From: Escherichia phage UP19
Length of the DNA stretch: 64,000 nucleotides
Sequence record: OX638288
Strand: one strand, 5' to 3'
Below are positions 24,414-51,644 of the stretch, one piece after another. Numbering within the stretch: the stretch's first letter is position 1; the number at the start of each line of letters is the position of its first letter. Below the pieces are notes generated by a model that saw only the letters and a program-made list of their open reading frames with translations, had not been told where the DNA came from and searched no databases. The position numbers and the translations under genes are program-made.

Positions 24414-24706
24414 AACGTTTTGAAGAGTATGTAGCTTTGAATTGGACCGCATGGGACAAGTTCGGTAATGACTGGTACTTCCATGACTGTGACCTGAACC
24501 CTGAATTCTTTAAAGGTAAGGAAGACGACCTTAAGGACATCTATGCTCTGTCAGAGATTCATGGTATTAAACCAACGGTTTATTTCTCTTTTGATGACAC
24601 TGGTTTCCTTATCCAGATTTACGTCCCATACGGAACTAATGAAGACGAAGTTATCAAAACTTGGGACTACCAAGGAGTTATTTCCTGTGGACCAAAAGTT
24701 AACTAA
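24410..24706 (+). CDS. hypothetical protein (98 aa)
   Basis: ORF track; ATGA overlap. Confidence 0.5.
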   Translation: MKRFEEYVALNWTAWDKFGNDWYFHDCDLNPEFFKGKEDDLKDIYALSEIHGIKPTVYFSFDDTGFLIQIYVPYGTNEDEVIKTWDYQGVISCGPKVN

Positions 24707-25004
24707 AATTGAGATTTACGGTATCCCTGAGACAGTCATGCGCTGTCCAGGGTGCATTGCAGTTCTATCGCTCCTAAATTCCCTTTCTATCCCACATACT
24801 TTCTATCCTGTGATTAACCAGACGCCGTCAGGCGCAGTATATGACAAGCCTCTTATAGTATCATTGGCCAAACGTGCCGGCTTCAAGAGCTTAGCTATAC
24901 GCTATCCTGTAATCTTTGTTGATAATAAGAAAATAGAAAATATTCCTGCCTTCAAATCCCTTTTGATTGAGCTTGGCTATGACCGAGATTTAATTGAAGA
25001 TTAG
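24687..25004 (+). CDS. thioredoxin-fold protein with CPGC motif (NrdH/glutaredoxin-like), GTG start (105 aa)
   Basis: ORF track 24543..25004 trimmed to GTG 9 nt after AAGGAG; KIEIYGIPETVMRCPGC. Confidence 0.45.
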   Translation: MDQKLTKIEIYGIPETVMRCPGCIAVLSLLNSLSIPHTFYPVINQTPSGAVYDKPLIVSLAKRAGFKSLAIRYPVIFVDNKKIENIPAFKSLLIELGYDRDLIED

Positions 25005-25005
25005 T

Positions 25006-25034
25006 ATTTACTTCCTCTCCTCACGTGTTATAGT
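25006..25034 (+). promoter_or_regulatory. T4-type early promoter-like (ATTTAC, 17 nt, TATAGT) with inverted repeat CTCCTCA/TGAGGAG
   Basis: arms 25017-25023 and 25051-25057. Confidence 0.45.
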
Positions 25035-25063
25035 CTATCCTATCAACACATGAGGAGAACATT

Positions 25064-25240
25064 ATGACTATCCAAGATAAAGAAATTAAAGTCAACCAGT
25101 ATTATTCAATCAACGGCAAAGCTGTTCTAGTAACTGAAATATCTAGCCTAGACGTGTGGTATACCATAATTGACCTTAATATTAAAACGATTTGTGACCG
25201 TGGTGTATTTTGTTCGATAGCTAAGGAAATTAAATTATGA
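25064..25240 (+). CDS. small protein (58 aa), below ORF-track cutoff
   Basis: translated by eye; GAGGAGAA SD. Confidence 0.4.
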   Translation: MTIQDKEIKVNQYYSINGKAVLVTEISSLDVWYTIIDLNIKTICDRGVFCSIAKEIKL

Positions 25241-25491
25241 GCCTGAAATTGCATTCAATGAAAAATGTCATCACCCTTAATCTGGATGATGAGCGCCTAA
25301 TTTTTCTCACCGTCACTGATAAGAATATTGAAATTGCAAATGGTCCTAAGACTTATTGCTGTCCTGTTAAGAATTGGAAGCATGTAACCTTTTTGACCCT
25401 GGCCGACCGTCTGAAAGACCTTAAGTTGGATTTGGATATCAAAGACATCCAGTACATTAAAAACCTTATTGGATACAAACTGTTGAGGTAA
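25237..25491 (+). CDS. hypothetical protein (84 aa)
   Basis: ORF track. Confidence 0.5.
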   Translation: MSLKLHSMKNVITLNLDDERLIFLTVTDKNIEIANGPKTYCCPVKNWKHVTFLTLADRLKDLKLDLDIKDIQYIKNLIGYKLLR

Positions 25492-25493
25492 CT

Positions 25494-25787
25494 ATGGGTA
25501 AAACTATCCGTCGTAAAGAATTGCCATCTAGAGATTTTAATTGCATTGCTAGACGTAAAGCACCTGATGGCGTATCGGAAGAAACTTTGAATGAAAATAT
25601 CTTCCGGTCAGATAAATGGAAACGCTTTAGCGGCGTTGATTCTGAAGTTAAGAATGAAATGAACCGCCAACTTCGTAAAGAAGTGAGAAAACTGAAAAAA
25701 GATGTTTACAGCGACGATGAACCTGATTACAATACTTCTCATCGAGTTGCAAAACGTAAATCAAACGAATGCTATCGTTACAGCTGA
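25494..25787 (+). CDS. hypothetical basic protein (97 aa)
   Basis: ORF track. Confidence 0.5.
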   Translation: MGKTIRRKELPSRDFNCIARRKAPDGVSEETLNENIFRSDKWKRFSGVDSEVKNEMNRQLRKEVRKLKKDVYSDDEPDYNTSHRVAKRKSNECYRYS

Positions 25788-27914: not shown

Positions 27915-28125
27915 CCTGGTAGGCCTTTTAGAAGAAGTAGATGGAGAGTATTCGGCAATTCCTTATGTTCTTAAAATGTACCTTAAGGATATTGCCAAGC
28001 TTCCTATTGTAATAGACCCAAAACACCCTGATTCAGTAGAAATTAAAGCTGAAAAAGGAACATTAACTTATAACTATCACGTTACCGACGAAGATTTTTA
28101 TATAAAACTGAATTACAAGGATTAA
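27898..28125 (+). CDS. hypothetical protein (75 aa)
   Basis: ORF track 27877..28125 trimmed to ATG. Confidence 0.5.
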
Positions 28126-28126
28126 T

Positions 28127-28438
28127 ATGCAAAGCACCGACATTTCTCAATTGACCGAAGAGCAAATTGAAGAAGCCCAGAAGCGTTTAGAAGAGAATAA
28201 TGCTAAAGAAGCCGCTTCTCAAGCTGCCAAAATTCTTAAAAAGAATGCCCGTGAAATTAAGCGTCTTAATACACATGCTCAGGGCGCTGTTCTCGAAAAC
28301 AATTTCGAAGCTTACAAATATGCTATAATTAAATTACGTGGTATTTACCGTCAACCGACTACTGACGAAATCGTTAGAGTTATGTGGGAAACTACGCGTA
28401 AACAGATTTGGGAAATTATCAATGGCGCTAGTAAATAA
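28127..28438 (+). CDS. hypothetical protein (103 aa)
   Basis: ORF track. Confidence 0.5.
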   Translation: MQSTDISQLTEEQIEEAQKRLEENNAKEAASQAAKILKKNAREIKRLNTHAQGAVLENNFEAYKYAIIKLRGIYRQPTTDEIVRVMWETTRKQIWEIINGASK

Positions 28439-28622
28439 ACCCTTTAAACGGCTTCTTATTGGAGCCGCCTTCAGACTTCGCTCATACGGTAATATTTGTA
28501 TTAAGCAGACTGAAACCGAATATAAAATGATTGGGCAGTATTCCGATGAAATTTTTCGGATTGAGCCTGTAGCCAAGGTTTGGGTGGATTCACATCAACT
28601 TAAGAAGTGGTGGCAACGATGA
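28425..28622 (+). CDS. hypothetical basic protein (65 aa)
   Basis: ORF track 28338..28622 trimmed to ATG. Confidence 0.4.
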   Translation, partial: ALVNKPFKRLLIGAAFRLRSYGNICIKQTETEYKMIGQYSDEIFRIEPVAKVWVDSHQLKKWWQR

Positions 28623-28710
28623 TAACATGGACAGGTGGCTAATGAAAGACGAACATCCGGATTTTTAAGCTATGAATGACGAATACGAAAAAGTTTAAGA
28701 GGTTTTATGA

Positions 28711-28884
28711 ATGACGAATTCGATGGATTTTGATAAGATTAAATCTGACAAAAATGAGATGATACTTAAATTTGAAGCTGCTCGTATTAAAGCGGAAAAT
28801 GAAGGTACTATTACCTATAAGCCTATCAAGTTCAGGTCTTCTCATGAACCTCTGTATGGCGTATTAATTGGTAAAGGAGCTTAG
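28711..28884 (+). CDS. small protein (57 aa), below ORF-track cutoff
   Basis: translated by eye; AAGAGG SD 8 nt upstream. Confidence 0.4.
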   Translation: MTNSMDFDKIKSDKNEMILKFEAARIKAENEGTITYKPIKFRSSHEPLYGVLIGKGA

Positions 28885-28895
28885 GCTCCTTTTTT
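28874..28895 (+). terminator. rho-independent terminator
   Basis: GGAGC-TTAG-GCTCC followed by TTTTTT. Confidence 0.6.
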
Positions 28896-28938
28896 GCTTT
28901 ATATTCGGATGATAAAATGAACCAACTGAGGAGAACAT

Positions 28939-29082
28939 ATGGAATTACTTTTAGGATATGTCGTGTTATTCATGGCATTCTACACATTCACACGAGCCTG
29001 TTGGATAGGATTCTTTTCTACTCCTGATGGGTTCATCTCAATAATTTTATTTTGCATTGCGATAACGGTGCTCGGCTTATGA
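28939..29082 (+). CDS. small membrane protein (47 aa)
   Basis: translated by eye; GAGGAGA SD; ATGA overlap with gene 47 start. Confidence 0.45.
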   Translation: MELLLGYVVLFMAFYTFTRACWIGFFSTPDGFISIILFCIAITVLGL

Positions 29083-30101
29083 AAATATTAAACACAGGTG
29101 ACTGGCACCTTGGAGTGAAGGCCGATGATGTGTGGGTACAAAATATCCAACGTCAAGGTATCCAAGACGCTATCAATTATTCTAAAGCAAATGGTATTAC
29201 CGTGTGGATTCAATACGGTGATATCTTTGACGTTCGTAAAGCAATTACCCATAAGTGTATGGAATTCGCTCGCGAAATCTCTGATTTGCTTAAAGCTAAT
29301 GGCATTACCATGTATACCATTGTTGGTAATCATGATATGCACTACAAAAATACCTTGACTCCTAACGCAGCTTCTGAAGTTCTGGGTAAATATGACCATA
29401 TCAAGGTTATTGAGAAACCTACTACGGTTAACTTTGATGGCACCGAAATTGATTTGATTCCATGGATGTGTGAAGAAAACACGACTGATATCATGGACCA
29501 TATCAAAAATACCACAGCAGATTTCTGTATTGGACATTGGGAATTAAATGGTTTCTATTTCTATAAAGGAATGAAATCTCATGGTTTAGAACCTGATTTC
29601 CTTAAAAAGTATAAGCAAGTTTGGTCAGGCCACTTCCACACTATTTCTGATGCAGCAAACGTCAAGTACATTGGTACTCCATGGACCCTTACTGCAGGCG
29701 ATGAGAACGACCCTCGTGGTTTCTGGATTTTCGATACCGAAACTCATAAAATGGATTTCATCATTAATGAAACCTGTTGGCATCGTAAGATTCATTATCC
29801 TAACGAGACTATCGATTACAAAGATTTTACAAATATCGCAGTTCGTGTTATAGTCGATAAAATCGATGACGGTCTTACTAAGTTCGAATCAGAGCTTGAA
29901 AAGGTTGTTCACTCTTTACGTATTGTGTCTAAGGTAGATAATAGTGTTGATATCGATGATTCTGAAGAGGAAGACGAAGTTAAATCCCTCTTGGATATGA
30001 TGTATGATTATATCGATGCCCTTCCTGATGGCCACACTGAAGCCGATGTTAAAGCCCTTAAGACTATGGCTGCACAACTTTATAATGAGGTTACACGATG
30101 A
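29079..30101 (+). CDS. 47: recombination nuclease subunit gp47 (SbcD/Mre11-like), 340 aa
   Basis: ORF track 29052..30101 trimmed; MKILNTGDWHLGVKADD... matches T4 gp47 as recalled. Confidence 0.93.
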   Translation: MKILNTGDWHLGVKADDVWVQNIQRQGIQDAINYSKANGITVWIQYGDIFDVRKAITHKCMEFAREISDLLKANGITMYTIVGNHDMHYKNTLTPNAASEVLGKYDHIKVIEKPTTVNFDGTEIDLIPWMCEENTTDIMDHIKNTTADFCIGHWELNGFYFYKGMKSHGLEPDFLKKYKQVWSGHFHTISDAANVKYIGTPWTLTAGDENDPRGFWIFDTETHKMDFIINETCWHRKIHYPNETIDYKDFTNIAVRVIVDKIDDGLTKFESELEKVVHSLRIVSKVDNSVDIDDSEEEDEVKSLLDMMYDYIDALPDGHTEADVKALKTMAAQLYNEVTR

Positions 30102-36356: not shown

Positions 36357-39068
36357 ATGCAAGAATTCTATTTGACAGTCGAACAAATCGGTGATAATAT
36401 TCTCGAACGTTACATCGATAAAAATGGTAACGAACGTAGTCGTGAAGTTCCTTACAAGCCTACAATGTTTATGCACGCTAACCCAGAGCAAGCCGTAAAA
36501 TATATTGACATCTACGGTAAGGGTTGTGTTAAGAAAGAATTCGATTCAATGCGCGATGCTTCTCAGTGGATGAAGCGCATGGACGATATGGGTCTCGAAG
36601 CCCTTGGTATGGACGACTATAAATTAGCCTATTTGTCTGATACCTATCGTAAAGAAATCAAGTATGATTCTTCCAAGATTCGTATTGCAAACTTCGACAT
36701 CGAGGTAACATCCCCTGATGGATTCCCTGAACCTGCCCAGGCTAAACATCCTATCGATGCCATTACTCACTACGACTCGATTGATGATAAATTCTATGTA
36801 TTTGACCTTTTAGTTTCACCTTATGGTACGGTCGAAGAGTGGTCGATTAAAATCGCTGAGAAACTCCAAGACGAAGGTGGCGACGAAGTTCCACAAGAAA
36901 TCATTGACAAAATCGTTTATCTTCCGTTTAATTCTGAAGAAGAAATGATGCTTGAGTATCTGAATTTCTGGCAACAGAAAACTCCTGTGATTTTGACTGG
37001 ATGGAACGTTGAATCATTTGACGTGCCATACGTTTATAACCGTCTGAAAAATCTGTTTGGTGAGAACACTGCTAAGCGATTAAGCCCACATCGTAAGACT
37101 CGTGTTAAAGTTATCGAGAATATGTACGGTGTTCGCGAAATTATTACACTGTTCGGTATCTCTGTTCTGGATTATATCGACCTTTATAAAAAATTCAGCT
37201 TTACTAACCAGCCTTCTTATTCTCTGGATTATGTTTCTGAATATGAATTGAAAGTAGGTAAGTTGAAATATGATGGTCCTATCTCCAAGTTACGTGAGAC
37301 GAACCACCAACGATATATTTCCTATAACATTATCGACGTATATCGTGTTGTGCAGATTGATATGAAACGCCAGTTCATTCTTCTTAGTCTGGACATGGGT
37401 TACTATGCCAAGATGCAGATTCAGTCGGTGTTCAGTCCAATTAAGACTTGGGACGCTATTATCTTTAATAGCCTTAAAGAACAGGGTAAAGTTATTCCTC
37501 AGGCCAAATCGCATGCGGTTCAACCTTATCCAGGTGCTTTCGTTAAGGAACCTATTCCTAACGCGTACAAATATGTAATGAGTTTCGACCTTACATCTCT
37601 GTACCCGAGTATCATTCGACAAGTGAATATAAGCCCAGAGACCATCGCAGGGACATTCGCCAACGCACCGATACATGAATATATTGCCGGAACTGCTCCG
37701 CGTCCTAGCGACACCTACAGTTGCTCTCCTAACGGCATGATGTACTATAAAGACCGTGATGGTGTGATTCCTACAGAAATCACGAAGGTGTTCTTACAGC
37801 GTAAAGAACATAAAGGTTATATGCTTGCAGCTCAACGTAATGGTGAGTTAATTAAAGAAGCATTAGAAAATCCTAATCTGTCTGTTGATAGTCCACTGGA
37901 TATCGATTATCGTTTCGACTTCTCTGACGAAATCAAAGCTCAGATTAAAAAATTGTCAGCATCTTCTTTAAAAGAAATGTTGTTCAAAGCCGAACGTACT
38001 GAAGTCGCAGGTATGACTGCTCAGATTAACCGTAAGTTGCTTATCAACTCCCTTTATGGTGCACTTGGTAACGTATGGTTCCGTTACTATGACCTCAGGA
38101 ACGCAACTGCAATCACATTGTTTGGTCAAATGGCCCTCCAATGGATTGAACGTAAGGTTAACGAATATCTGAATGGCGTGTGCAAGACTGAAAACCAGAA
38201 GTTCGTGCTCTATGGTGATACTGACTCCATTTATGTTAAGGCTGACGCAATCATCAATAAAGTAGGCGAAGACAAATTCCGTGATACTAACCACTGGGTT
38301 GACTTCTTAGATAAATTTGCACGTGAACGTATGGAACCGGCTATTGATGCAGGCTTCCGTGAGATGTGCGAATACATGAACAACAAACAGCACTTGATGT
38401 TCATGGACCGAGAAGCTATCGCTGGTCCTCCGCTTGGTTCTAAAGGTCTTGGTGGATTCTGGACAGGCAAGAAACGTTATGCACTGAACGTTTGGGACAT
38501 GGAAGGTACTCGTTATGCCGAACCACACTTGAAAATCATGGGTCTCGAAACTCAGAAATCAAGTACGCCTAAAGCGGTTCAGAAAGCACTGAAAGAATGT
38601 ATCCGTCGTATGCTTCAAGAAGGCGAGGCTTCTTTGCAAGAATATTTCAAACAGTTTAATAAGGAATTTAACGAATTAGACTATGTAAGCATTGCTGCAG
38701 TATCCAGTGCTAACAACATCGAGAAATATAATGAAGGCGGATTCCCTGGTTCTAAATGCCCGTACCACATCAAAGGTTGCTTAGCTTACATGCGTGCTTC
38801 TGCTGGTGATTTGACTATGCCTCGTATCGTTGATGGTGAAAAGGTATATGTACTGCCACTTAAAGAAGGCAACCCGTTCGGTGAAGCTTGTATGGCGTGG
38901 CCGTCAGGTATTGAACTTCCGATTCAGATTCGTGACCAAGTCCTCCGTTGGATGGACTACAACGTACTGTTCCAAAAGACCTTTATCAAACCTCTAACCG
39001 GTTTTACTGAGTCTGCTAAAATCGACTACGAGAAAAAAGCAACATTATTTGACATGTTTGACTTTTAA
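36357..39068 (+). CDS. 43: DNA polymerase gp43 (family B), 903 aa
   Basis: ORF track 36297..39068 (TTG alt start) trimmed to ATG; strong similarity to T4/RB69 gp43 as recalled, closer to RB69-type. Confidence 0.97.
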   Translation: MQEFYLTVEQIGDNILERYIDKNGNERSREVPYKPTMFMHANPEQAVKYIDIYGKGCVKKEFDSMRDASQWMKRMDDMGLEALGMDDYKLAYLSDTYRKEIKYDSSKIRIANFDIEVTSPDGFPEPAQAKHPIDAITHYDSIDDKFYVFDLLVSPYGTVEEWSIKIAEKLQDEGGDEVPQEIIDKIVYLPFNSEEEMMLEYLNFWQQKTPVILTGWNVESFDVPYVYNRLKNLFGENTAKRLSPHRKTRVKVIENMYGVREIITLFGISVLDYIDLYKKFSFTNQPSYSLDYVSEYELKVGKLKYDGPISKLRETNHQRYISYNIIDVYRVVQIDMKRQFILLSLDMGYYAKMQIQSVFSPIKTWDAIIFNSLKEQGKVIPQAKSHAVQPYPGAFVKEPIPNAYKYVMSFDLTSLYPSIIRQVNISPETIAGTFANAPIHEYIAGTAPRPSDTYSCSPNGMMYYKDRDGVIPTEITKVFLQRKEHKGYMLAAQRNGELIKEALENPNLSVDSPLDIDYRFDFSDEIKAQIKKLSASSLKEMLFKAERTEVAGMTAQINRKLLINSLYGALGNVWFRYYDLRNATAITLFGQMALQWIERKVNEYLNGVCKTENQKFVLYGDTDSIYVKADAIINKVGEDKFRDTNHWVDFLDKFARERMEPAIDAGFREMCEYMNNKQHLMFMDREAIAGPPLGSKGLGGFWTGKKRYALNVWDMEGTRYAEPHLKIMGLETQKSSTPKAVQKALKECIRRMLQEGEASLQEYFKQFNKEFNELDYVSIAAVSSANNIEKYNEGGFPGSKCPYHIKGCLAYMRASAGDLTMPRIVDGEKVYVLPLKEGNPFGEACMAWPSGIELPIQIRDQVLRWMDYNVLFQKTFIKPLTGFTESAKIDYEKKATLFDMFDF

Positions 39069-39070
39069 GT

Positions 39071-39100
39071 GTTTACATACCACATGGAACGTGGTAGTAT
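39071..39100 (+). promoter_or_regulatory. T4-type early promoter (GTTTAC 39071-39076, TAGTAT 39095-39100) with hairpin TACCAC/GTGGTA in spacer
   Basis: 18-nt spacer; hairpin 39078-39096. Confidence 0.5.
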
Positions 39101-39130
39101 CCTTCCTATCAACTACATGAGGAAATTATA

Positions 39131-39367
39131 ATGGAAGCTTTAATCGTTAGTGCTGGTGTTTTAGGATTCGGTTCTCTGGTTATTATGTTCATTGGTTACT
39201 TTTTACCATGGATTCTGGCCCTTCTGCGAGGCACTCGTAGCAATGTTGGAATCTTCTTCCTTAATCTCCTGTTAGGGTGGACGATGATTGGTTGGGTAGT
39301 GGCTTTAATCTGGGCTATCGTCGCTGAACGTAAATCAAACGCACAAATCATTATCGTTAAACAATGA
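39131..39367 (+). CDS. imm: small two-helix membrane protein, Imm-like by position (78 aa)
   Basis: position immediately downstream of gene 43; two transmembrane segments. Confidence 0.5.
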   Translation: MEALIVSAGVLGFGSLVIMFIGYFLPWILALLRGTRSNVGIFFLNLLLGWTMIGWVVALIWAIVAERKSNAQIIIVKQ

Positions 39368-39501
39368 AGATAATTATTTTATTTCTTATAATGGCTGCCT
39401 TTACCGTTTATTGGGCAGTGGCAATTCCTCCAATGATTCCAACATTAATCATGGGATGGATTATTCTTATAGCACAAATTAAGTATAACTGTTTTAATTG
39501 A
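39364..39501 (+). CDS. small hydrophobic protein (45 aa), below ORF-track cutoff
   Basis: translated by eye; ATGA overlap with imm-like stop. Confidence 0.4.
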   Translation: MKIIILFLIMAAFTVYWAVAIPPMIPTLIMGWIILIAQIKYNCFN

Positions 39502-39508
39502 GGATATT

Positions 39509-40009
39509 ATGAAAAAGTTAATTATCGCAATGAGTATGCTCCTATCAGGTTGCGCAGTCCAATACGGTGATGCAGTTTCTGCTGATGAAGTTGGTAAAGC
39601 TCGTATCGCAGCTGAACAGAAACAATTCGACGGCGAAATGAAATTCCGTGCCGGTTCTGGACTTGTGTACACCCGAGCTAATAATCAATGTGGTAATAAC
39701 TGTGCAAAATATGCTCAAGGGGAAATCGAATTCCAACGTGAACAAGAGTCTAAGCGTGAAGCGGTACTAGCCAAACACCAGGCAGAAATGAAGCGCCAAG
39801 ATGATTTGTACAAAAAGCAGAAACTGTATGCCATGTGTGTAAACCATATCAATCTACAGATTTCTGTCCACGAGGCTCGTTATTACGAAATGCTCGAAAC
39901 CGAGAGCTTCGATAAGGCTCGTGATTATAAGAAACAAATCAACAAGCTTAAGACCAAAGTGCCTGCTGCAGTAGAACAGTGCATGGAATACGGTAAAGAT
40001 AAGATTTAA
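39509..40009 (+). CDS. lipoprotein (166 aa)
   Basis: signal peptide with lipobox LSGC; charged coiled-coil-like C-terminal half. Confidence 0.6.
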   Translation: MKKLIIAMSMLLSGCAVQYGDAVSADEVGKARIAAEQKQFDGEMKFRAGSGLVYTRANNQCGNNCAKYAQGEIEFQREQESKREAVLAKHQAEMKRQDDLYKKQKLYAMCVNHINLQISVHEARYYEMLETESFDKARDYKKQINKLKTKVPAAVEQCMEYGKDKI

Positions 40010-40069
40010 GCAATAGAAATTTATTAAAAATAGTGTATAATGTACCTACATTCACTTGAGGAACAGATA

Positions 40070-41743
40070 ATGAAAAAGGTTGTTATTTTAGGCGCAGGTC
40101 TTGGCTCACGGTTGTATCCAATTACTAACGAAATCCCAAAGGTATTGGTTAACTACAAACAACATACGGTATTAAAACATTTGTATGATTTGTATAGTAA
40201 CCAATCAGATGAAATTATTCTGGTTATTCACAGCAAATTTAACGACCTCGTTAAAGGCTATATTAAATCCATTAACATGATTACTGGTGATAAGCCTAAA
40301 TTCACTATTCGTAACGTTGATGTTGCTAATGGTTCAGCTCATGCTATCGATTGCATTGCCGAAGATATCATTGGCCATAATGTCCTGTTTAACTGGTGTG
40401 ACATCATTCCTATCGGTCATAAAGTTGAATGGGGTAACGACTATTGTTATACCTATGGAACTGACTGTCGCTTTACATTTGAAGAACCGTACTTACGTGA
40501 AATTGGTACCGGTGGCGGTGTAGTTGGTTTGTATCAGGTAGCCAATTGGACAGGTTTCGACCGTTCTAATTATGGCGAAGACCTTGCTGATAACCTGGAT
40601 TCAATGGTCTATTTGACTGAACGTAAACTGGATTTTGTAGTTGATGTCGGTGACAAATTGAAACTTGCCAAGGCCCATGAAGATTCTGAAATTAACCGTG
40701 AATTTAATAAATTAGAGTTCACCGAGAATCTGGCTATTAAAGTACCAACTAACGAATTAGGTAAAGAAATTCAATCTAAAGAAATCAATTGGTATAATTC
40801 TATTGATTCTGAATTCGTTCCTAGCATTGTAGACTTTTCTCCAGGCGAATTCATTAAAATGGAACGTATCTTTGGTCGTACCATGGCAGATGCCTACCGG
40901 TTTATGTCCAAAGAAACTAAAGTCCTCATGGTTTATAAGGTCATTAGTGCATTACGTTCATTCGGTGGAACTATCGATAATCCGTCCGATGAGCAATGGT
41001 ATTCCGATGTTAAGAAAGAAGTGTTGGACAAGGTCCTTATTCGTAATGCTTCTATTGCCGGATTGATTGAAGGCTTTGCTCCACAGGGCATTACCCATGT
41101 TAACGATTTCAAAGTAGGCGACCCCGAAAAACTTCTCCGCCATGCACTAGAAATTCTGTCTGAACATAAAGAACCGTACCAACTTATTCATGGCGACCCG
41201 CACTACAGTAATATTATGCTGTCGGACGAAGGTGATATTAAAATCATCGACCCACGTGGTTATTTCGGTAATAGTTCTAAAGGCCCTGCGATTTATGATG
41301 AAGCTAAGGTGCTTTATTCTATCGATGGCTATGACAAATTTAACTCAGACCCTCTATGGGGTGGATTAACTCGTAACGGAACTCGTGTATTCGTTGATAT
41401 CGAAAAGGTTATGCCTTTAGACGATATTCCTATGTGCACATTTAAGCACAAGCTCTGGATTGCTGTTATTTGGATGGCGCTGGCAGGTTACTTTAAGAAT
41501 AACCCTCTGAAAGCTCTGGGTGCTTATTATAACGGTTTGTATCAACTGAGTGTGCTGCTGAAGCGGCATCCTCGTAAGCGTAAGCTTATTACTGGTGAAT
41601 TTGTCGATGAAGTTCGTGACCCTATCACGGCTCAAATTATTACTCGTTGTCCTGATAAGTGGGTTTTGCTTGACCAGGAAACTGGTGTAAAATATAAACC
41701 TACAGGTTCTACTGAGCTCCACAAACAATGGAAGAAAATTTAA
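40070..41743 (+). CDS. bifunctional nucleotidyltransferase/kinase-like protein (557 aa)
   Basis: ORF track 40040..41743 trimmed; N-terminal ILGAGLGSRLYPITNEIPKVLV; C-terminal HGDPHYSNIM and IIDPRG. Confidence 0.75.
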   Translation: MKKVVILGAGLGSRLYPITNEIPKVLVNYKQHTVLKHLYDLYSNQSDEIILVIHSKFNDLVKGYIKSINMITGDKPKFTIRNVDVANGSAHAIDCIAEDIIGHNVLFNWCDIIPIGHKVEWGNDYCYTYGTDCRFTFEEPYLREIGTGGGVVGLYQVANWTGFDRSNYGEDLADNLDSMVYLTERKLDFVVDVGDKLKLAKAHEDSEINREFNKLEFTENLAIKVPTNELGKEIQSKEINWYNSIDSEFVPSIVDFSPGEFIKMERIFGRTMADAYRFMSKETKVLMVYKVISALRSFGGTIDNPSDEQWYSDVKKEVLDKVLIRNASIAGLIEGFAPQGITHVNDFKVGDPEKLLRHALEILSEHKEPYQLIHGDPHYSNIMLSDEGDIKIIDPRGYFGNSSKGPAIYDEAKVLYSIDGYDKFNSDPLWGGLTRNGTRVFVDIEKVMPLDDIPMCTFKHKLWIAVIWMALAGYFKNNPLKALGAYYNGLYQLSVLLKRHPRKRKLITGEFVDEVRDPITAQIITRCPDKWVLLDQETGVKYKPTGSTELHKQWKKI

Positions 41744-42126
41744 TGTCGCATCGAGTAGAAAATAAGCCACATTTATGTTTTGATATCGATAACACAATCA
41801 CGATTTGGAACCATGACCGTGATTATGAGAACTTTAAACCGGACACCGAAATGGTGTCCATGATTAATAAGCTTTATGATGAAGGGTACGAGATTACATT
41901 ATTCACTGCCCGTGGCATGACTTCATGTGGCCCAGGTCGAATCTTGGTTGAAGTAGTTCCTGCATTGGTTAAGAACCTTGAAAAGATTGGATTGAAATAT
42001 CATAATCTGCTTACGCATAAGCCGAGTTATACTTTTATCATCGATGACCGAGCAATCCGTCCTGACCACTTTAAAGAAATGGTTCGTGAAGGAACTCTTG
42101 ATAGTTATAAGGCCTATCATCCATGA
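41743..42126 (+). CDS. HAD-superfamily phosphatase-like protein (127 aa)
   Basis: ORF track 41728..42126 trimmed to TAATG-overlap ATG; HAD motif I FDIDNTIT. Confidence 0.65.
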   Translation: MSHRVENKPHLCFDIDNTITIWNHDRDYENFKPDTEMVSMINKLYDEGYEITLFTARGMTSCGPGRILVEVVPALVKNLEKIGLKYHNLLTHKPSYTFIIDDRAIRPDHFKEMVREGTLDSYKAYHP

Positions 42127-42659
42127 ATCCAAAAATCATTGTTATAGACGGCCCGGATAATTCCGGGAAGTCCACTTTAATTAAAAATCTGTTATCCAAT
42201 AAGAAATACCGCCTTATTGATTTTCCTAAAAAGATTAATGGCAAGTGTATTTCATTAGGAACTGATAACGATAAGGCTTTAGTTGAAACTCTGTATAAGT
42301 TTTTAGACCCTAATTTCGTTTATATCCTTGACCGTGGTTATCCAAGTAATATTGTTTACTCAGGATTCCTTCGTGGTGAAATGGACCCTTATGTAGAACT
42401 GGAAGATTGGAAAGGGTTTAAATCCGAATTTAACGTTATCGAGGTTATTTTAACTCGCAATCCATTAGACGAAGACTTCGAAGACGACCTTATTAAATTA
42501 ACCAAAGATGAGTTCAACCTAACTATCCGGCAATACGAAACATGTTTTGAAAACGTGTTTAAAATCTTAAATCATGACGGCCATAATAATTTGCTTAATG
42601 TTGATATGGTAGAATTAAAACGTCTGAACGAATATATTGAAAATAAGGTGAATAAATGA
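42123..42659 (+). CDS. P-loop (d)NMP-kinase-like protein (178 aa)
   Basis: Walker A IVIDGPDNSGKST resembles thymidylate/deoxynucleotide kinase family. Confidence 0.65.
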   Translation: MNPKIIVIDGPDNSGKSTLIKNLLSNKKYRLIDFPKKINGKCISLGTDNDKALVETLYKFLDPNFVYILDRGYPSNIVYSGFLRGEMDPYVELEDWKGFKSEFNVIEVILTRNPLDEDFEDDLIKLTKDEFNLTIRQYETCFENVFKILNHDGHNNLLNVDMVELKRLNEYIENKVNK

Positions 42660-43354
42660 AACACATTACCGCTGTTAGTTTTGAAAATGCATTTAAACAA
42701 ATGAACGAAGAAATCCTGGAAGCTCCACAGTTTGCAGTTGATTCTCGTATCGGACGTTGTTATGAAATTGGTTCTGCTTCGGTAGAAGTACTGGATGCAA
42801 GCACCTATAAATTCACCGACCCACGTATCAATCGTATTAGTTATGAATATGCCGAATCCTTTTGGAAATTTATGATTTCTGGTGGTACTGACGCTGCCGA
42901 AGCATTTAAGGAATACCCTAATGTTGCTAAGTTCATTGATAAGCCGAAAAGTGATGTATTGCCTGCAAACTTCAACACTTTCTATGGACCTCGAATTGTG
43001 GCCCAACTCCCAGCCCTACTTAAAGAGCTTAAAGAAAAGGCTAACTCGCGAAGAGTTGTGTTCCAGATTCTCCAAGAACAAGACCAAGCCCTCCTTGATT
43101 CTGACGAATCCTTAGAATATCCTTGCACCGATTCGGTAACGTATTATATTCGTGACGGACGTTTGTATGCACACACCCATATGCGTTCACAAAACTGCGC
43201 CGTTGTTATGCAGCTGGATTTCTATCTGCAGGGTAAACTGATGGCATTTATTGCTGAACAGTGTGGTGTCGGTTTAGGTACATATTCCCACACCATGGTA
43301 AGTGCACACGTGTTTGAACGTGATTTTGACTACGTCCGAGGTTTCCTGAAATGA
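42656..43354 (+). CDS. 42: thymidylate-synthase-fold pyrimidine hydroxymethylase (gene 42 position), divergent from T4 gp42 (232 aa)
   Basis: NSRRVVFQI, EYPCTDSVTYYIRDGRLYAHTHMRSQNCA and SAHVFERDF align with T4 gp42 motifs as recalled. Confidence 0.7.
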   Translation: MKHITAVSFENAFKQMNEEILEAPQFAVDSRIGRCYEIGSASVEVLDASTYKFTDPRINRISYEYAESFWKFMISGGTDAAEAFKEYPNVAKFIDKPKSDVLPANFNTFYGPRIVAQLPALLKELKEKANSRRVVFQILQEQDQALLDSDESLEYPCTDSVTYYIRDGRLYAHTHMRSQNCAVVMQLDFYLQGKLMAFIAEQCGVGLGTYSHTMVSAHVFERDFDYVRGFLK

Positions 43355-44244
43355 GTTTGTTTATCGTTCCTATTTTCAGTATGCGTAGTTACGAAACAGG
43401 TGAATATGCCGTCCTTAAGGACGGCAATTTTCAACTCCATTTAAATCGTGCTCGTCCAGGTGATTATCTGGCTTATCCTAGAAATTCGAGCGATATCAAA
43501 GAATGCATTGAATTATTCCCAGAACTGAATTTCGTACCACTTTGGTATAAAGAAAATGCTTATGAAACCCGTAAACATTTCTGGTCTGAAAATGAGTTTG
43601 TAGTCGATTCACTAATCGAATACTATGATTGCTCAGGACTGGTGACCGATATCACCGGTTATGATGGTGCTCATACTGTACAATTCAACTTTAATATCAC
43701 AATGGACCCTGAAGTTCCTCGTTATTATATCGACGAGTTCATTGATATTGATGTGGCTTCAGTTGAACGTTCACTTTATACTACAGTCTTGAATCAATGC
43801 CAGAAAGACGTCCTGGTGTCACGAGGTGCATCCTCTGATAAGATTTTTGTAGACCAAAAGGTAATTAATCCTGCAGTAATTGAGCGTTACTCTGAAGGTC
43901 TAGCGCCTATTAAAATTGATGGTATTTTCCATCCATTCCGTATTTCGGATAAGTGTTATCAATTCGAAAGAGTTGTAGACCAAGCTGCCGCTGAAGGTGC
44001 TCGTCTTTATATCACCGACCCTAATGATTCATTTAAGCGCGAAGACTATCGTCCTGATGTAGAGATTATTAAATTCAAACCGAGTAAGGTTGAATATTAT
44101 CAAATTCTGAAATCAAGACCACATATCATTTATCATGAGAACCCAGGTTTAGTATTCCATCCTGGTCTGGCTGAATTCATTTATTTTGGTGCCAATATTC
44201 ATTCTGAATACGAAATGCCACGTTATGAGGACGTAGTATGCTAG
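43351..44244 (+). CDS. hypothetical protein in beta-glucosyltransferase position; candidate DNA-modifying transferase (297 aa)
   Basis: ORF track; positional replacement of T4 beta-gt between 42 and uvsX; no recognisable similarity to T4 beta-gt as recalled. Confidence 0.6.
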   Translation: MSLFIVPIFSMRSYETGEYAVLKDGNFQLHLNRARPGDYLAYPRNSSDIKECIELFPELNFVPLWYKENAYETRKHFWSENEFVVDSLIEYYDCSGLVTDITGYDGAHTVQFNFNITMDPEVPRYYIDEFIDIDVASVERSLYTTVLNQCQKDVLVSRGASSDKIFVDQKVINPAVIERYSEGLAPIKIDGIFHPFRISDKCYQFERVVDQAAAEGARLYITDPNDSFKREDYRPDVEIIKFKPSKVEYYQILKSRPHIIYHENPGLVFHPGLAEFIYFGANIHSEYEMPRYEDVVC

Positions 44245-44369
44245 GTCCTCTATTGCTTTTTATAGGTTTGTTATTATTCTCTTTCGGAGGCTTGCTATTA
44301 TTAGTGTGGCTCGAGAAACGAGAAGTTCGGAAGATAGTCGATAAGGCTATCAACCGAGGAATTAAGTAA
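44238..44369 (+). CDS. small hydrophobic protein (43 aa), below ORF-track cutoff
   Basis: translated by eye; overlaps preceding stop. Confidence 0.3.
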   Translation: MLGPLLLFIGLLLFSFGGLLLLVWLEKREVRKIVDKAINRGIK

Positions 44370-44446
44370 TGCTGTAGCTGTGAAGTGATATAATTACCCT
44401 ATCTTAAAACGTGAGAAAAATATAATGATGCCTATGGAAAAATATA

Positions 44447-45619
44447 ATGTCTGATTTAAAATCCCGTTTGATTAAAGCTTCTACTTCTAAAATGACTGCC
44501 GACCTGACCAAATCTAAATTGTTTAATGGTCGTGACGAAGTTCCTACTCGTATTCCTATGCTTAATATTGCATTGGGTGGTGCGTTGAATGCAGGCTTAC
44601 AATCAGGTTTGACAATCTTTGCTGCACCGTCTAAACACTTTAAAACGTTGTTTGGATTAACTATGGTTGCGGCATATATGAAGAAATATCCAGACGCAAT
44701 TTGCTTGTTCTATGACTCTGAGTTCGGTGCTTCAGAATCTTATTTCCGTTCAATGGGTGTTGACCTGGAACGTGTGGTTCATACGCCAATCCAGTCAGTC
44801 GAACAACTGAAGGTTGACATGACCAACCAATTAGAAGAAATTACTCGTGGTGAAAAGGTTATTATCTTTATCGACTCCATCGGTAACACTGCTTCTAAGA
44901 AAGAAACCGAAGATGCTTTGAACGAGAAAGTTGTAGGTGATATGACTCGTGCTAAGTCTCTGAAATCTCTGTTCCGTATCGTAACACCTTATCTGACTAT
45001 CAAGGATATTCCTTGCGTAGCAATTAACCATACGGCTATGGAAATTGGTGGAATGTATCCTAAAGAGATTATGGGTGGTGGTACTGGTATTCTGTACTCT
45101 GCTTCTACCGTATTCTTTATCTCTAAACGTCAGGTTAAAGATGGTACCGAGCTCACTGGTTATGACTTCACCCTGAAGGCCGAAAAATCTCGTACTGTTA
45201 AAGAGAAATCAACGTTCCCAATTACTGTGAACTTTGAAGGTGGTATCGACCCGTTTAGTGGTCTGCTCGAAATGGCTACTGATATTGGCTTTGTCGTGAA
45301 ACCTAAAGCTGGTTGGTATAATCGTGCATTCCTTGACGAAACCACGGGTGAAATGGTTCAAGAAGAAAAATCATGGCGTGCTAAAGCTACCGATTGTGTC
45401 GAGTTCTGGGGACCACTGTTTAAACATGCTCCATTCCGTGAAGCAATCGAGAATAAGTATAAGCTCGGTGCAATTAATTCTATTAAAGAAGTCGATGATG
45501 CAGTGAACGACCTTATTAACTCTCGTGTCTCTAAGAACGTTGCAGTTAAATTGAGCGGTGACACTCAAAGCGCTGCTGATATCGAAAACGATTTAGAAGA
45601 GATGGATTTAGATGACTGA
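44447..45619 (+). CDS. uvsX: recombinase UvsX (RecA-like), 390 aa
   Basis: MSDLKSRLIKASTSK...FAAPSKHFKT matches T4 UvsX as recalled. Confidence 0.95.
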   Translation: MSDLKSRLIKASTSKMTADLTKSKLFNGRDEVPTRIPMLNIALGGALNAGLQSGLTIFAAPSKHFKTLFGLTMVAAYMKKYPDAICLFYDSEFGASESYFRSMGVDLERVVHTPIQSVEQLKVDMTNQLEEITRGEKVIIFIDSIGNTASKKETEDALNEKVVGDMTRAKSLKSLFRIVTPYLTIKDIPCVAINHTAMEIGGMYPKEIMGGGTGILYSASTVFFISKRQVKDGTELTGYDFTLKAEKSRTVKEKSTFPITVNFEGGIDPFSGLLEMATDIGFVVKPKAGWYNRAFLDETTGEMVQEEKSWRAKATDCVEFWGPLFKHAPFREAIENKYKLGAINSIKEVDDAVNDLINSRVSKNVAVKLSGDTQSAADIENDLEEMDLDD

Positions 45620-45941
45620 TTTATCTGATTTAGATAATTTTGTTAAAGATACTGAAGAGGGTCCTAGTGACCCTCGGTATTATGAGAAATCGTTAGATAT
45701 AATCCGTAAGTCAATGGGTTCTGTTAAGCAGGAAATTATGCTTACATTACCTGATGGCACTGCTCACATCGTTTATGTGATGAATATTGTTATTGAGAAA
45801 GATGGAAAAGTGTCGGTTGATTTCGGAACGCCTTCCGAAGACCGAAAAGAAGAGCTAGCGCTTCATGTAGAAAAATGTGTTACAATGCAAATACAAGAAG
45901 AACTGGATAAAATTAAATCTAAGAGGTGGTGGAAGTGGTAG
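45612..45941 (+). CDS. 40: gene 40-like protein by position (109 aa)
   Basis: ORF between uvsX and 41 as in T4; sequence identity not verified. Confidence 0.45.
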   Translation: MTDLSDLDNFVKDTEEGPSDPRYYEKSLDIIRKSMGSVKQEIMLTLPDGTAHIVYVMNIVIEKDGKVSVDFGTPSEDRKEELALHVEKCVTMQIQEELDKIKSKRWWKW

Positions 45942-51028: not shown

Positions 51029-51122
51029 GTTATCCTCCTGTTAAATTAATATTTATTCGCTTTAATCTAGCAGTTTATAATTATCTAACTTACTAACAAA
51101 TGAATTGATAAGGAAAAATATA

Positions 51123-51644
51123 ATGGCTCATTTTAATGAATGTTCTCAACTTATTGCCGGTGCCGATAAAGCTGAAGAAGCTTATTTTAATGCTCTGATT
51201 CACGAAGATAAAGACCCTCTACAGGTTATGCTTGATATGCAGAAATCTTTGCAGGTTCGTTTAGCTAAAGATAAGCCTGAATATAATCGTCATCCTGATG
51301 ATTTGGCCACTGCGGGTGAAGTTGTCGATTGGCTTCGCAACCAGAAAGATTATATTGATGACGAATTCCGTGAACTTCTGACTTCTCTTGGTGGTATGAG
51401 CAATGGTGAAAAAGATGCATCTGCAGTATGGAAGCCTTGGAAAGCTCAACATGCTGAACGTCGTGAAACCCTGATTAACGATTTGTCTCCTGAAGACCAG
51501 CTCGAAATTAAATTCGAAATGATTGATATTCTGCACTTTGTTCTGAATATGTTCCAGGGTCTTGGACTGACCGCTGAAGAAATCTTTAAACTGTATTACC
51601 TGAAAAATGCCGAGAACTTTGCTCGTCAAGACCGAGGTTATTAA
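51123..51644 (+). CDS. 56: dCTPase/dUTPase gp56 (173 aa)
   Basis: ORF track 51105..51644 trimmed; MAHFNEC...DPLQVMLDMQ...FRELLTSLG matches T4 gp56 as recalled. Confidence 0.9.
   Translation: MAHFNECSQLIAGADKAEEAYFNALIHEDKDPLQVMLDMQKSLQVRLAKDKPEYNRHPDDLATAGEVVDWLRNQKDYIDDEFRELLTSLGGMSNGEKDASAVWKPWKAQHAERRETLINDLSPEDQLEIKFEMIDILHFVLNMFQGLGLTAEEIFKLYYLKNAENFARQDRGY

What the first reader, a model, noticed from the sequence alone, without database searches (positions are those of the whole stretch)
43351..44244. 297-aa ORF occupying the beta-glucosyltransferase slot without recognisable beta-gt similarity
It sits exactly where T4 beta-gt lies (between 42 and uvsX) and is translationally coupled to the hydroxymethylase (ATGA overlap). 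It is a natural candidate for the transferase that attaches the activated moiety to hydroxymethyl-pyrimidine in DNA.
Basis: inference. Interest (0 to 1): 0.7.

Follow-up and report, generated by a model that had tools for sequence, protein, structure and literature searches.

The report
Putative first sugar transferase for 5-hydroxycytosine DNA

Summary
The ORF is real: 43351-44244, 297 aa, ATGA overlap with the upstream gene, in T4's beta-gt slot, with no similarity to beta-gt. The window is a Dhakavirus, and the protein is 100% identical to JS98 gp038. It is the orthologue of RB69 gp47+gp46, DLP3 gp79 and Thanatos TH1_063, named "arabinosyltransferase 1" in NAR 2026 (PMC13326640), which lists Dhakaviruses as carrying the cluster.

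The upstream "hydroxymethylase" is 80% identical to RB69 gp48, a verified flavin-dependent 5-hydroxy-dCMP synthase, and carries its D169N signature. The acceptor is therefore 5-hydroxycytosine, not hydroxymethylcytosine.

JS98 lacks the second transferase (gp3 type), the arabinose-5-phosphate isomerase and the U32-like gene. That predicts a single sugar per base.

Still open: transfer activity has not been shown in any paper I could read, the acceptor could be DNA or the free nucleotide, and the Dhakavirus sugar is unmeasured. I also found metagenomic relatives fused to the cluster's TMPK-like kinase.

The parts
43351..44244 (+). Target: GT-B-fold protein of 297 aa, orthologue of RB69 gp47+gp46 / DLP3 gp79 / Thanatos TH1_063 / HY126 XAN60474 (putative base-proximal arabinosyltransferase, 'GT1')
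42656..43354 (+). 5-hydroxy-dCMP synthase (thymidylate-synthase homologue, flavin-dependent hydroxylase type): Cys157, Asn180 (= ThyA D169N), Asp188 (= N177D), Glu154 (= L143E)
   Evidence: Pfam Thymidylat_synt, E 3.6e-13. 80% identity to RB69 gp48. PDB 9iqu/9iqc, E 2e-125. Signature alignment. Function of the orthologues shown in PMC13326640.
42123..42659 (+). TMPK-like nucleotide kinase (RB69 gp45 homologue) with P-loop GPDNSGKST
   Evidence: PHROG 761 thymidylate kinase, E 1.5e-39. 38% identity to RB69 gp45. Weak cmk/dTMP-kinase NCBIfam hits. Next to GT1 in 46 of 51 loci. Fused to GT1 in some metagenomic relatives (hhalign probability 95%).
41728..42126 (+). HAD-family sugar-phosphate phosphatase (RB69 gp51 / HY126 AfhF type)
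   Evidence: 62% identity to RB69 gp51. NCBIfam capsule-biosynthesis phosphatase TIGR01689, E 1.3e-14. AfhF role described in PMC13326640.
40040..41743 (+). Bifunctional sugar-1-phosphate nucleotidyltransferase (N-terminal) plus sugar kinase (C-terminal), RB69 gp53:52 / HY126 AfhE type. The true start is probably the ATG at 40070.
   Evidence: Pfam NTP_transferase, E 3.4e-8, and APH, E 1.2e-5. 44% and 41% identity to RB69 gp53 and gp52. The PHROG 4098 alignment starts at residue 11, and the JS98 annotation is 557 aa.
44238..44369 (+). 43-aa hydrophobic ORF whose start overlaps the target's stop codon. Whether it belongs to the pathway is uncertain.
   Evidence: ORF. 93-98% conserved in JS98 and 4 of 6 Dhakavirus loci, and about 33% in two Mosigvirus-like loci. 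Not annotated in JS98.
51105..51644 (+). gp56 dCTPase/dUTPase, which supplies dCMP and removes dCTP (the annotated start corresponds to 51123)
   Evidence: 100% identical over 173 aa to JS98 gp56. Role as in T4 (established knowledge).

Best explanation
The ORF encodes the single, base-proximal glycosyltransferase of the phage pathway that replaces cytosine with glycosylated 5-hydroxycytosine. The proposed sequence is as follows. (1) gp56 makes dCMP. (2) The upstream ThyA homologue hydroxylates dCMP to 5-hydroxy-dCMP. (3) The NT/kinase and the HAD phosphatase turn a pentose phosphate into a UDP-pentose; in RB69 and HY126 this is D-arabinose-5-P going to Araf-1,5-P2, then Araf-1-P, then UDP-Araf. 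Here arabinose-5-P would have to come from the host enzymes KdsD or GutQ. (4) The target, a GT-B enzyme, binds the UDP-sugar in its C-terminal domain (invariant R197, K246, H270-P-G and E275) and transfers the sugar to the 5-OH of 5-hydroxycytosine, probably with retention of configuration (alpha linkage). Because Dhakaviruses have no gp3-type second transferase, the product should carry one sugar per base. Shown here: orthology, fold, gene context, the hydroxylase signature, and the absence of other transferases. Shown by others for orthologues: steps 2 and 3, and the chemical structure of the base in RB69 and DLP3. Inferred: the transfer step itself, the donor, the stereochemistry, and whether the acceptor is DNA (the T4 paradigm) or the nucleotide.
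Against: No paper I could read shows transfer activity for this family. PMC13326640 saw no arabinosylation by individual DLP3 transferases on 5hoC-DNA with UDP-Araf or UDP-Arap. The Thanatos study saw no transfer, but tested only unmodified acceptors, and it reported UDP-xylose formation by TH1_063 instead. No family member matches any Pfam glycosyltransferase model (0 of 58), and there is no profile similarity to RB69 gp3 or T4 beta-gt. The canonical GT4 E-x7-E motif is absent. Foldseek ranks UDP-GlcNAc 2-epimerases first. The Dhakavirus NT/kinase belongs to a separate subtype that never co-occurs with a phage isomerase, so the sugar may not be arabinose. No chemical analysis of Dhakavirus DNA was found. 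He et al. 2026 and Mahler et al. 2025 could not be read.
Confidence: 0.77

Rival explanations
1. Same enzyme and same chemistry, but the acceptor is the free nucleotide. The target would glycosylate 5-hydroxy-dCMP before replication. The adjacent TMPK-like kinase would then phosphorylate the glycosylated dNMP, and the phage polymerase would incorporate the already glycosylated dCTP analogue.
For: The trio of ThyA homologue, GT1 and TMPK-like kinase is the conserved core; the kinase is adjacent in 46 of 51 loci, and the trio is all that remains in an environmental clade. About eight distant members have GT1 fused to a homologue of this kinase (hhalign probability 95.2%, E 2.8e-8, controls below 1%; Pfam Thymidylate_kin E 1.2e-4). 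These fusions sit in T4-like contigs beside an isomerase, an NT/kinase and a U32-like gene. The family is strongly acidic: median pI 5.2, target net charge -17, against T4 beta-gt pI 9.05. The GT1 orthologue was inactive on 5hoC-DNA, and the authors say nucleotide versus DNA is unresolved. A separate gp1-type kinase already phosphorylates 5hodCMP, which leaves the second kinase without a role. From established knowledge, bare 5-hydroxycytosine in DNA is a substrate of host endonuclease III and Nei-type repair.
Against: All characterised phage DNA sugar transferases act after replication, including DLP3 gp76 and gp77 on RB69 DNA. 5hodC is incorporated into DNA when only the synthase and the gp1-type kinase are expressed. 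T4 alpha-gt is also mildly acidic (pI 6.1). A fusion could simply reflect membership of one multi-enzyme complex. The fused kinase domains have a deviant P-loop (GKD in place of GK[ST]).
Confidence: 0.25
2. The protein is a sugar-1-phosphate uridylyltransferase that makes the UDP-pentose, as reported for its Thanatos orthologue TH1_063, and is not the transferase.
For: AEM 2025 (PMC12838424) detected UDP-xylose by LC-MS/MS from UTP plus xylose-1-P with His-purified TH1_063 and not without enzyme. TH1_063 is 52% identical to the target.
Against: The fold is GT-B, not the nucleotidyltransferase fold, and there is no NTP_transferase signal. The cluster already encodes an NTP_transferase domain at 40040-41743, whose HY126 orthologue AfhE is reported to be the UDP-arabinose pyrophosphorylase. 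The only control was a no-enzyme reaction, so a co-purified E. coli uridylyltransferase is not excluded (my inference). This reading would leave Dhakaviruses and Thanatos with no transferase at all.
Confidence: 0.06
3. The protein is a GT-B-like NDP-sugar epimerase or another non-transferring NDP-sugar enzyme that tailors the donor sugar.
Confidence: 0.04
4. One reading: a beta-gt replacement that transfers an activated group onto 5-hydroxymethyl-pyrimidine in DNA.
For: The beta-gt slot and coupling to a gene-42 homologue. RB69 was originally reported as arabinosyl-hmC (PMC6024577).
Against: The gene-42 homologue carries D169N and is 80% identical to a verified 5hodCMP synthase. The RB69 structure was revised to arabinosyl-5-hydroxycytosine by NMR and MS (PMC13326640; PMC13390438). 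JS98's only other ThyA homologue is an ordinary td gene with Asp at that position.
Confidence: 0.03

Closest known systems
RB69 gp46:47, DLP3 gp79 and HY126 XAN60474 ('arabinosyltransferase 1' of the arabinosyl-5-hydroxycytosine pathway; PHROG 3891)
   Different: In Mosigvirus and Acinetobacter phages it works alongside one or two gp3-type transferases, a phage arabinose-5-P isomerase and (in Mosigvirus) a U32-like gene. In this window it stands alone with a minimal five-gene module, the kinase gene lies upstream and not downstream, and the NT/kinase is of a different subtype.
Shewanella phage Thanatos TH1_063
   Same: 52% identical over the full length. Same gene order: NT/kinase, HAD, ThyA homologue, GT1. 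It is the only GT-fold protein in a phage reported as mono-glycosylated.
   Different: It has been assayed: reported to form UDP-xylose from UTP and xylose-1-P, with no transfer to unmodified acceptors. Thanatos keeps the U32-like gene and an RB69-type NT/kinase.
RB69 gp3 / HY126 glycosyltransferase (PDB 9iqz, 9ir0) / DLP3 gp76 and gp77 (second and third arabinosyltransferases, GT4-like)
   Different: No detectable sequence or profile similarity. They are about 366 aa with a recognisable GT4 N-terminal domain. They act on already arabinosylated DNA. They are absent from Dhakaviruses.
T4 beta-glucosyltransferase (and alpha-glucosyltransferase)
   Different: No sequence similarity. The acceptor is 5-hydroxymethylcytosine in DNA and the donor is UDP-glucose. 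Beta-gt is basic (pI 9.05), whereas the target is acidic (pI 4.9).
Rhizobium phage RL38J1 gp215 ('galactosyltransferase 1')
   Same: A predicted GT-B-like transferase encoded next to a D169N 5hodCMP synthase and a thymidylate-kinase-like gene, proposed to add the base-proximal sugar to 5hoC.
   Different: A different phage family (Pootjesviridae) and a hexose (galactose) donor. Homology to the target was not tested here.

Membership tests
Phage 'arabinosyltransferase 1' family (RB69 gp46:47 / DLP3 gp79 / TH1_063; PHROG 3891) | Full-length sequence homology to the named members | tested here: met
   PHROG 3891, E 3e-159, residues 1-296. RB69 gp47 70% and gp46 65%. HY126 67%. TH1_063 52%, E 3e-99. 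BFVD RB69 ORF047c and ORF046c at TM 0.96 each.
Phage 'arabinosyltransferase 1' family (RB69 gp46:47 / DLP3 gp79 / TH1_063; PHROG 3891) | Encoded immediately downstream of a ThyA homologue with the 5hodCMP-synthase signature (D169N, N177D, L143E) | tested here: met
   Window protein has MRSQN, D188 and E154. The same arrangement is seen in 47 of 49 informative loci.
Phage 'arabinosyltransferase 1' family (RB69 gp46:47 / DLP3 gp79 / TH1_063; PHROG 3891) | Clustered with NDP-pentose activation genes (bifunctional NT/kinase, HAD phosphatase) | tested here: met
   40040-41743 and 41728-42126 lie in the same overlapping chain. The isomerase present in RB69 is missing.
Phage 'arabinosyltransferase 1' family (RB69 gp46:47 / DLP3 gp79 / TH1_063; PHROG 3891) | Transfers arabinofuranose from UDP-Araf to 5-hydroxycytosine | not testable with these tools
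   Not shown for any member in the papers I could read; negative in vitro for DLP3 transferases tested singly.
Phage 'arabinosyltransferase 1' family (RB69 gp46:47 / DLP3 gp79 / TH1_063; PHROG 3891) | The phage's virion DNA contains glycosylated 5-hydroxycytosine | not testable with these tools
   No chemical analysis of Dhakavirus DNA found; only a synteny-based inference in PMC13326640.
GT-B glycosyltransferases of GT4 type (Pfam Glycos_transf_1 / Glyco_trans_4) | Two Rossmann-like domains with an inter-domain cleft (GT-B fold) | tested here: met
GT-B glycosyltransferases of GT4 type (Pfam Glycos_transf_1 / Glyco_trans_4) | Significant match to the family's sequence models | tested here: not met
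   0 of 58 members hit any glycosyltransferase Pfam model at E up to 1, apart from one chance-level Galactosyl_T hit at E 0.11. No NCBIfam hit. hhalign against RB69 gp3 gives probability 0.2%.
GT-B glycosyltransferases of GT4 type (Pfam Glycos_transf_1 / Glyco_trans_4) | E-x7-E motif in the C-terminal domain | tested here: not met
   The corresponding region reads V268-F-H270-P-G-L-A-E275. Only the second Glu is present, with His270 invariant in place of a first Glu.
GT-B glycosyltransferases of GT4 type (Pfam Glycos_transf_1 / Glyco_trans_4) | Conserved Arg/Lys for the diphosphate and Glu for the ribose of the NDP-sugar (alpha-gt R204 and E311; ORF003c R207 and E281, per PMC6024577) | tested here: inconclusive
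   Invariant R197 (loop after the first strand of the C-domain), K246 and E275 (helix N-terminus) sit at fitting positions. No residue-level superposition was available.
T4 beta-glucosyltransferase family | Sequence or profile similarity to T4 beta-gt | tested here: not met
T4 beta-glucosyltransferase family | Partnered with a dCMP hydroxymethylase that provides hmC as acceptor | tested here: not met
   The partner enzyme has the hydroxylase signature D169N and is 80% identical to RB69 gp48.
Sugar-1-phosphate nucleotidyltransferases (function claimed for TH1_063) | Nucleotidyltransferase fold or NTP_transferase domain | tested here: not met
   No NTP_transferase hit, and the fold is GT-B. That domain is present instead in 40040-41743.
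UDP-GlcNAc 2-epimerase-like GT-B enzymes | Closest structural and sequence match to Epimerase_2 family members | tested here: inconclusive

The most novel reading that the evidence does not exclude
The first sugar is added before replication. This acidic GT-B enzyme would glycosylate free 5-hydroxy-dCMP, and the always-adjacent (sometimes fused) TMPK-like kinase would be the dedicated kinase for the glycosylated nucleotide. The phage polymerase would then incorporate a ready-made glycosyl-dCTP analogue. This would be the first case of nucleotide-level glycosylation in phage DNA hypermodification. A second, independent possibility is that the Dhakavirus-type NT/kinase, which never co-occurs with an arabinose-5-P isomerase, activates a different pentose, so that JS98-type DNA carries a sugar other than arabinose.
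Probability: 0.25. Interest if true: 0.75.

Novelty: already known. Interest (0 to 1): 0.33.

Why it matters
Glycosylated 5-hydroxycytosine is a recently recognised phage DNA hypermodification that blocks many restriction enzymes and alters sensitivity to CRISPR and type IV systems. JS98-type Dhakaviruses have been used as therapeutic coliphages, so knowing what base they carry has practical value. The target family is the universal transferase candidate of this pathway, found in 352 sequenced phages. It is also the one step that has not been reconstituted in any paper I could read. Dhakaviruses offer the simplest natural version of the pathway for doing that: five genes, one transferase, no isomerase. 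For this scan, the lesson is that the "hydroxymethylase plus unknown transferase" pattern is now explained, and the gene-42 homologue should be read by its D169 residue.

Tried and rejected
1. Sequence-level assignment to a glycosyltransferase family failed at every level: Pfam on the target, Pfam on all 58 alignment members, NCBIfam, a profile search of PDB sequences, and hhalign against RB69 gp3 and T4 beta-gt. Only fold comparison is informative.

2. Reading the two primary papers most likely to contain an assay failed by DOI and by PubMed id. These are He et al., Nat Chem Biol 2026, and Mahler et al., Cell Host Microbe 2025. Searches for HY126 'Afh' gene names found nothing else.

3. The transposon-mutagenesis preprint gave only the LC53 and Bas46 modification types, with no gene-level data.

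4. Single-sequence phmmer of the window's kinase and HAD proteins against the fusion proteins found nothing; profile-profile comparison was needed.

5. The roughly 185-aa N-terminal extensions of a second fusion group could not be assigned. The Pfam HAD hits are weak (E 0.004-0.007) and hhalign against the cluster's HAD family was negative.

6. No ThyA homologue was found near the GT1-kinase fusions.

7. Promoter and terminator scans gave no more sites than shuffled sequence, so they say nothing about the operon.

8. Net charge as a DNA-binding indicator is not decisive, because T4 alpha-gt is also mildly acidic.

9. Rejected: a beta-gt homologue, a nucleotidyltransferase and an hmC acceptor (see rival explanations).
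Full report
OBSERVATION. The ORF is exactly as described: 43351-44244 on the + strand, 297 aa, with an ATG that overlaps the TGA of the upstream ORF in the sequence ATGA. It is the fifth member of a chain of overlapping ORFs: 40040-41743, 41728-42126, 42123-42659, 42656-43354 and 43351-44244. A 43-aa ORF (44238-44369) follows, and then uvsX at 44447. The T4 record shows the gene order 43, imm.1, imm, 42, b-gt, segA, uvsX, so the ORF does occupy the beta-gt slot. It has no similarity to T4 beta-gt: BLASTP E 0.65 and hhalign probability 0.3%. It is a real, conserved gene. It matches PHROG 3891 over its full length at E 3e-159, has tblastn hits in 352 phage records, and belongs to a family of 241 representative clusters found by an exhaustive profile search.

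WHERE THE WINDOW COMES FROM. The 6.7 kb around the ORF is 98-99% identical to Dhakavirus genomes (IME281, JS10, JS98). The protein is 100% identical to JS98 gp038, which the depositors annotated as 'RB69 orf047c-like'.

WHAT IT IS. Local tblastn shows that the target equals RB69 gp47 (residues 1-179, 70% identity) plus gp46 (residues 184-296, 65%). In HY126, a close RB69 relative, the gene is one intact 299-aa ORF that is 67% identical to the target. This agrees with the statement in NAR 2026 (PMC13326640) that the RB69 split is a sequencing error.

That paper, together with PMC13390438, revised the RB69 modification from arabinosyl-hmC to arabinose linked by an ether bond to 5-hydroxycytosine. 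It showed that the ThyA homologues RB69 gp48 and DLP3 gp80 are flavin-containing 5-hydroxy-dCMP synthases. It named RB69 gp46:47 and DLP3 gp79 'arabinosyltransferase 1' on the basis of fold and synteny. It lists Dhakaviruses among the genera with the syntenic cluster. The target's family and proposed role are therefore already published.

INDEPENDENT TESTS DONE HERE.

(2) Sequence. None of the 58 members matches a Pfam glycosyltransferase or epimerase model, and there is no profile similarity to RB69 gp3. The family is a sequence orphan. Its invariant residues form N-domain motifs (SMRS, KDGN, ENAxETR, NFNIT) and a C-domain set: FxPFR197ISD, TDPN, K246xxYY and VxH270PGxxE275. R197 and E275 sit where GT-B enzymes place the beta-phosphate Arg and the ribose Glu (T4 alpha-gt R204 and E311, as summarised in PMC6024577). 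I could not superpose residues, and the canonical E-x7-E motif is absent.

(3) The partner enzyme. The upstream protein is 80% identical to RB69 gp48 and matches the HY126 enzyme structures 9iqu and 9iqc at E 2e-125. It has Asn at the ThyA D169 position (MRSQN). T4 gp42 has MRSND, and JS98 td and E. coli ThyA also have Asp. D169N is the experimentally validated marker of 5hodCMP synthases.

(4) Neighbourhoods. I fetched 51 viral-contig loci holding a target homologue. In 47 of the 49 with enough upstream sequence, a ThyA homologue lies immediately upstream. The D169 position is Asn in 46 of them and Ser in 1.

(5) The other pathway genes. 40040-41743 is the NTP-transferase plus kinase protein (AfhE type). 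41728-42126 is the HAD phosphatase (AfhF type). 42123-42659 is a TMPK-like kinase. The gp56 dCTPase is at 51105-51644.

(6) What is missing. RB69 gp3 (second transferase), gp55 (arabinose-5-P isomerase), gp50 (U32-like) and gp49 have no homologue in the window or anywhere in JS98. JS98 has no alpha-gt or beta-gt. Across 50,697 phage records, the gp3 type is confined to Mosigvirus-type coliphages (one copy), Acinetobacter phages (two places per record) and one Tegunavirus. The target type is also present in Klebsiella, Serratia, Yersinia, Proteus, Enterobacter, Pseudomonas and Shewanella phages. Copy number of the gp3 type tracks the reported di- and tri-arabinosylation. Phages reported as mono-arabinosylated (Thanatos, LC53) come from groups that have only the target type. 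This is the best comparative argument that the target adds the base-proximal sugar. It predicts one sugar per base in Dhakaviruses.

MECHANISM. The most likely course is as follows. dCMP from gp56 is hydroxylated to 5hodCMP. The NT/kinase and HAD phosphatase make a UDP-pentose; in HY126 this is UDP-arabinofuranose made from arabinose-5-P through the 1,5-bisphosphate. The target then transfers the sugar to the 5-OH of 5-hydroxycytosine. Retention of configuration is likely, because the base-proximal arabinose is alpha-linked and the nearest folds are retaining GT4 enzymes; this step is my inference. With no phage isomerase, arabinose-5-P would have to come from the host enzymes KdsD or GutQ (established E. 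coli Kdo metabolism; inference).

WHAT REMAINS UNCERTAIN.

(a) Activity. PMC13326640 saw no arabinosylation by single DLP3 transferases on 5hoC-DNA. The Thanatos study tested only unmodified acceptors and reported UDP-xylose formation by TH1_063. I consider a contaminating uridylyltransferase more likely, given the GT-B fold and the presence of a dedicated NTP-transferase in the cluster.

(b) Acceptor level. The authors state that nucleotide versus DNA is unresolved. I found that about eight distant family members (519-599 aa) carry a C-terminal domain homologous to the cluster's TMPK-like kinase: hhalign probability 95.2%, E 2.8e-8, cross-controls below 1%, and a Pfam Thymidylate_kin hit at E 1.2e-4. 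These fusions sit in T4-like contigs next to an isomerase, an NT/kinase and a U32-like gene. The kinase is almost always adjacent to the target, the family is acidic, and a gp1-type kinase already handles 5hodCMP. Together these make a pre-replicative, nucleotide-level glycosylation a live alternative, which I rate at about 25%.

(c) Sugar identity. All 21 loci with a phage isomerase have an NT/kinase at most 46% identical to the window's. All 10 loci without one have an NT/kinase at least 71% identical. I found no chemical analysis of Dhakavirus DNA.

(d) Two primary papers could not be read. They may already settle (a) and (b) for the HY126, Bas46 or LC53 orthologues.

VERDICT. The gene belongs to a published family with a published, still putative, role, so it counts as already known and interest is modest. 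The residual value lies in three things: the unassayed first transfer step, the kinase-fusion clue about the acceptor, and the minimal Dhakavirus module with its distinct NT/kinase subtype.

Noticed in passing
window 44238-44369 (+): An unannotated 43-aa hydrophobic ORF (MLGPLLLFIGLLLFSFGGLLLLVWLEKREVRKIVDKAINRGIK) whose ATG overlaps the target's stop codon. It is 93-98% conserved in JS98 and 4 of 6 Dhakavirus loci and about 33% in two Mosigvirus-like loci at the same place before uvsX. It is probably a small single-pass membrane protein.
   Followed up: partly
window 39000-45700; JS98 genome L003-L006: The Dhakavirus modification module is minimal. There is no arabinose-5-P isomerase, U32-like protein, gp49 or gp3-type second transferase anywhere in the genome. 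The kinase gene lies upstream of the ThyA homologue, whereas in RB69 it lies downstream of the transferase.
   Followed up: yes
window 40040-41743; loci L009-L059: The NT/kinase comes in two subtypes that correlate perfectly with the presence of a phage isomerase. Where the isomerase is present, identity to the window's protein is at most 46% (21 loci). Where it is absent, identity is at least 71% (10 loci: Dhakavirus, a Klebsiella-type group and one Proteus-type phage). The Dhakavirus subtype might activate a different sugar phosphate.
   Followed up: partly
P0205, P0209, P0214, P0225, P0243, P0245, P0247, P0202; loci L062-L065: Metagenomic T4-like phages encode the target-type domain fused to a TMPK-like kinase domain with a deviant P-loop (GKD). 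The fusion gene is followed by SIS isomerase, NT/kinase and U32-like genes. No ThyA homologue was detected in the 15 kb fetched.
   Followed up: partly
P0131, P0145, P0148, P0153, P0168, P0170, P0213: A second fusion group has an N-terminal extension of about 185 aa in front of the target-type domain. It gives only weak Pfam HAD hits (E 0.004-0.007) and no profile match to the cluster's HAD family.
   Followed up: partly
loci L035-L050: An environmental clade (38-42% identical to the target) keeps only the trio of ThyA homologue (D169N), transferase and kinase, with no sugar-activation genes within 8 kb. These phages may use a host NDP-sugar.
   Followed up: no
loci L054, L057, L058: Distant members (25-29% identity) are atypical. 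L057's ThyA homologue has Ser at the D169 position (MRSQS). L054 and L058 have a U32-like neighbour but no detectable ThyA homologue.
   Followed up: no
window 40040 versus 40070: The longest ORF starts at 40040, but the PHROG alignment and the JS98 annotation (557 aa) point to the ATG at 40070 (MKKVVILGAG...), which places the nucleotide-binding Gly-rich loop at the very N-terminus.
   Followed up: partly
window 39509-40009 (+): A 166-aa ORF between imm and the NT/kinase begins MKKLIIAMSMLLSGC, which looks like a lipoprotein signal peptide with a lipobox. It is JS98 orf43, sits where RB69 has its isomerase, and has no informative Pfam hit.
   Followed up: no
L001 (RB69 NC_004928) 24597-25497 and 28094-29780: The RB69 reference record still splits both the transferase (p046/p047) and the NT/kinase (p052/p053) into two CDSs. 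HY126 and all other relatives have single ORFs. The HY126 record labels every pathway gene except the isomerase as 'hypothetical protein'.
   Followed up: yes
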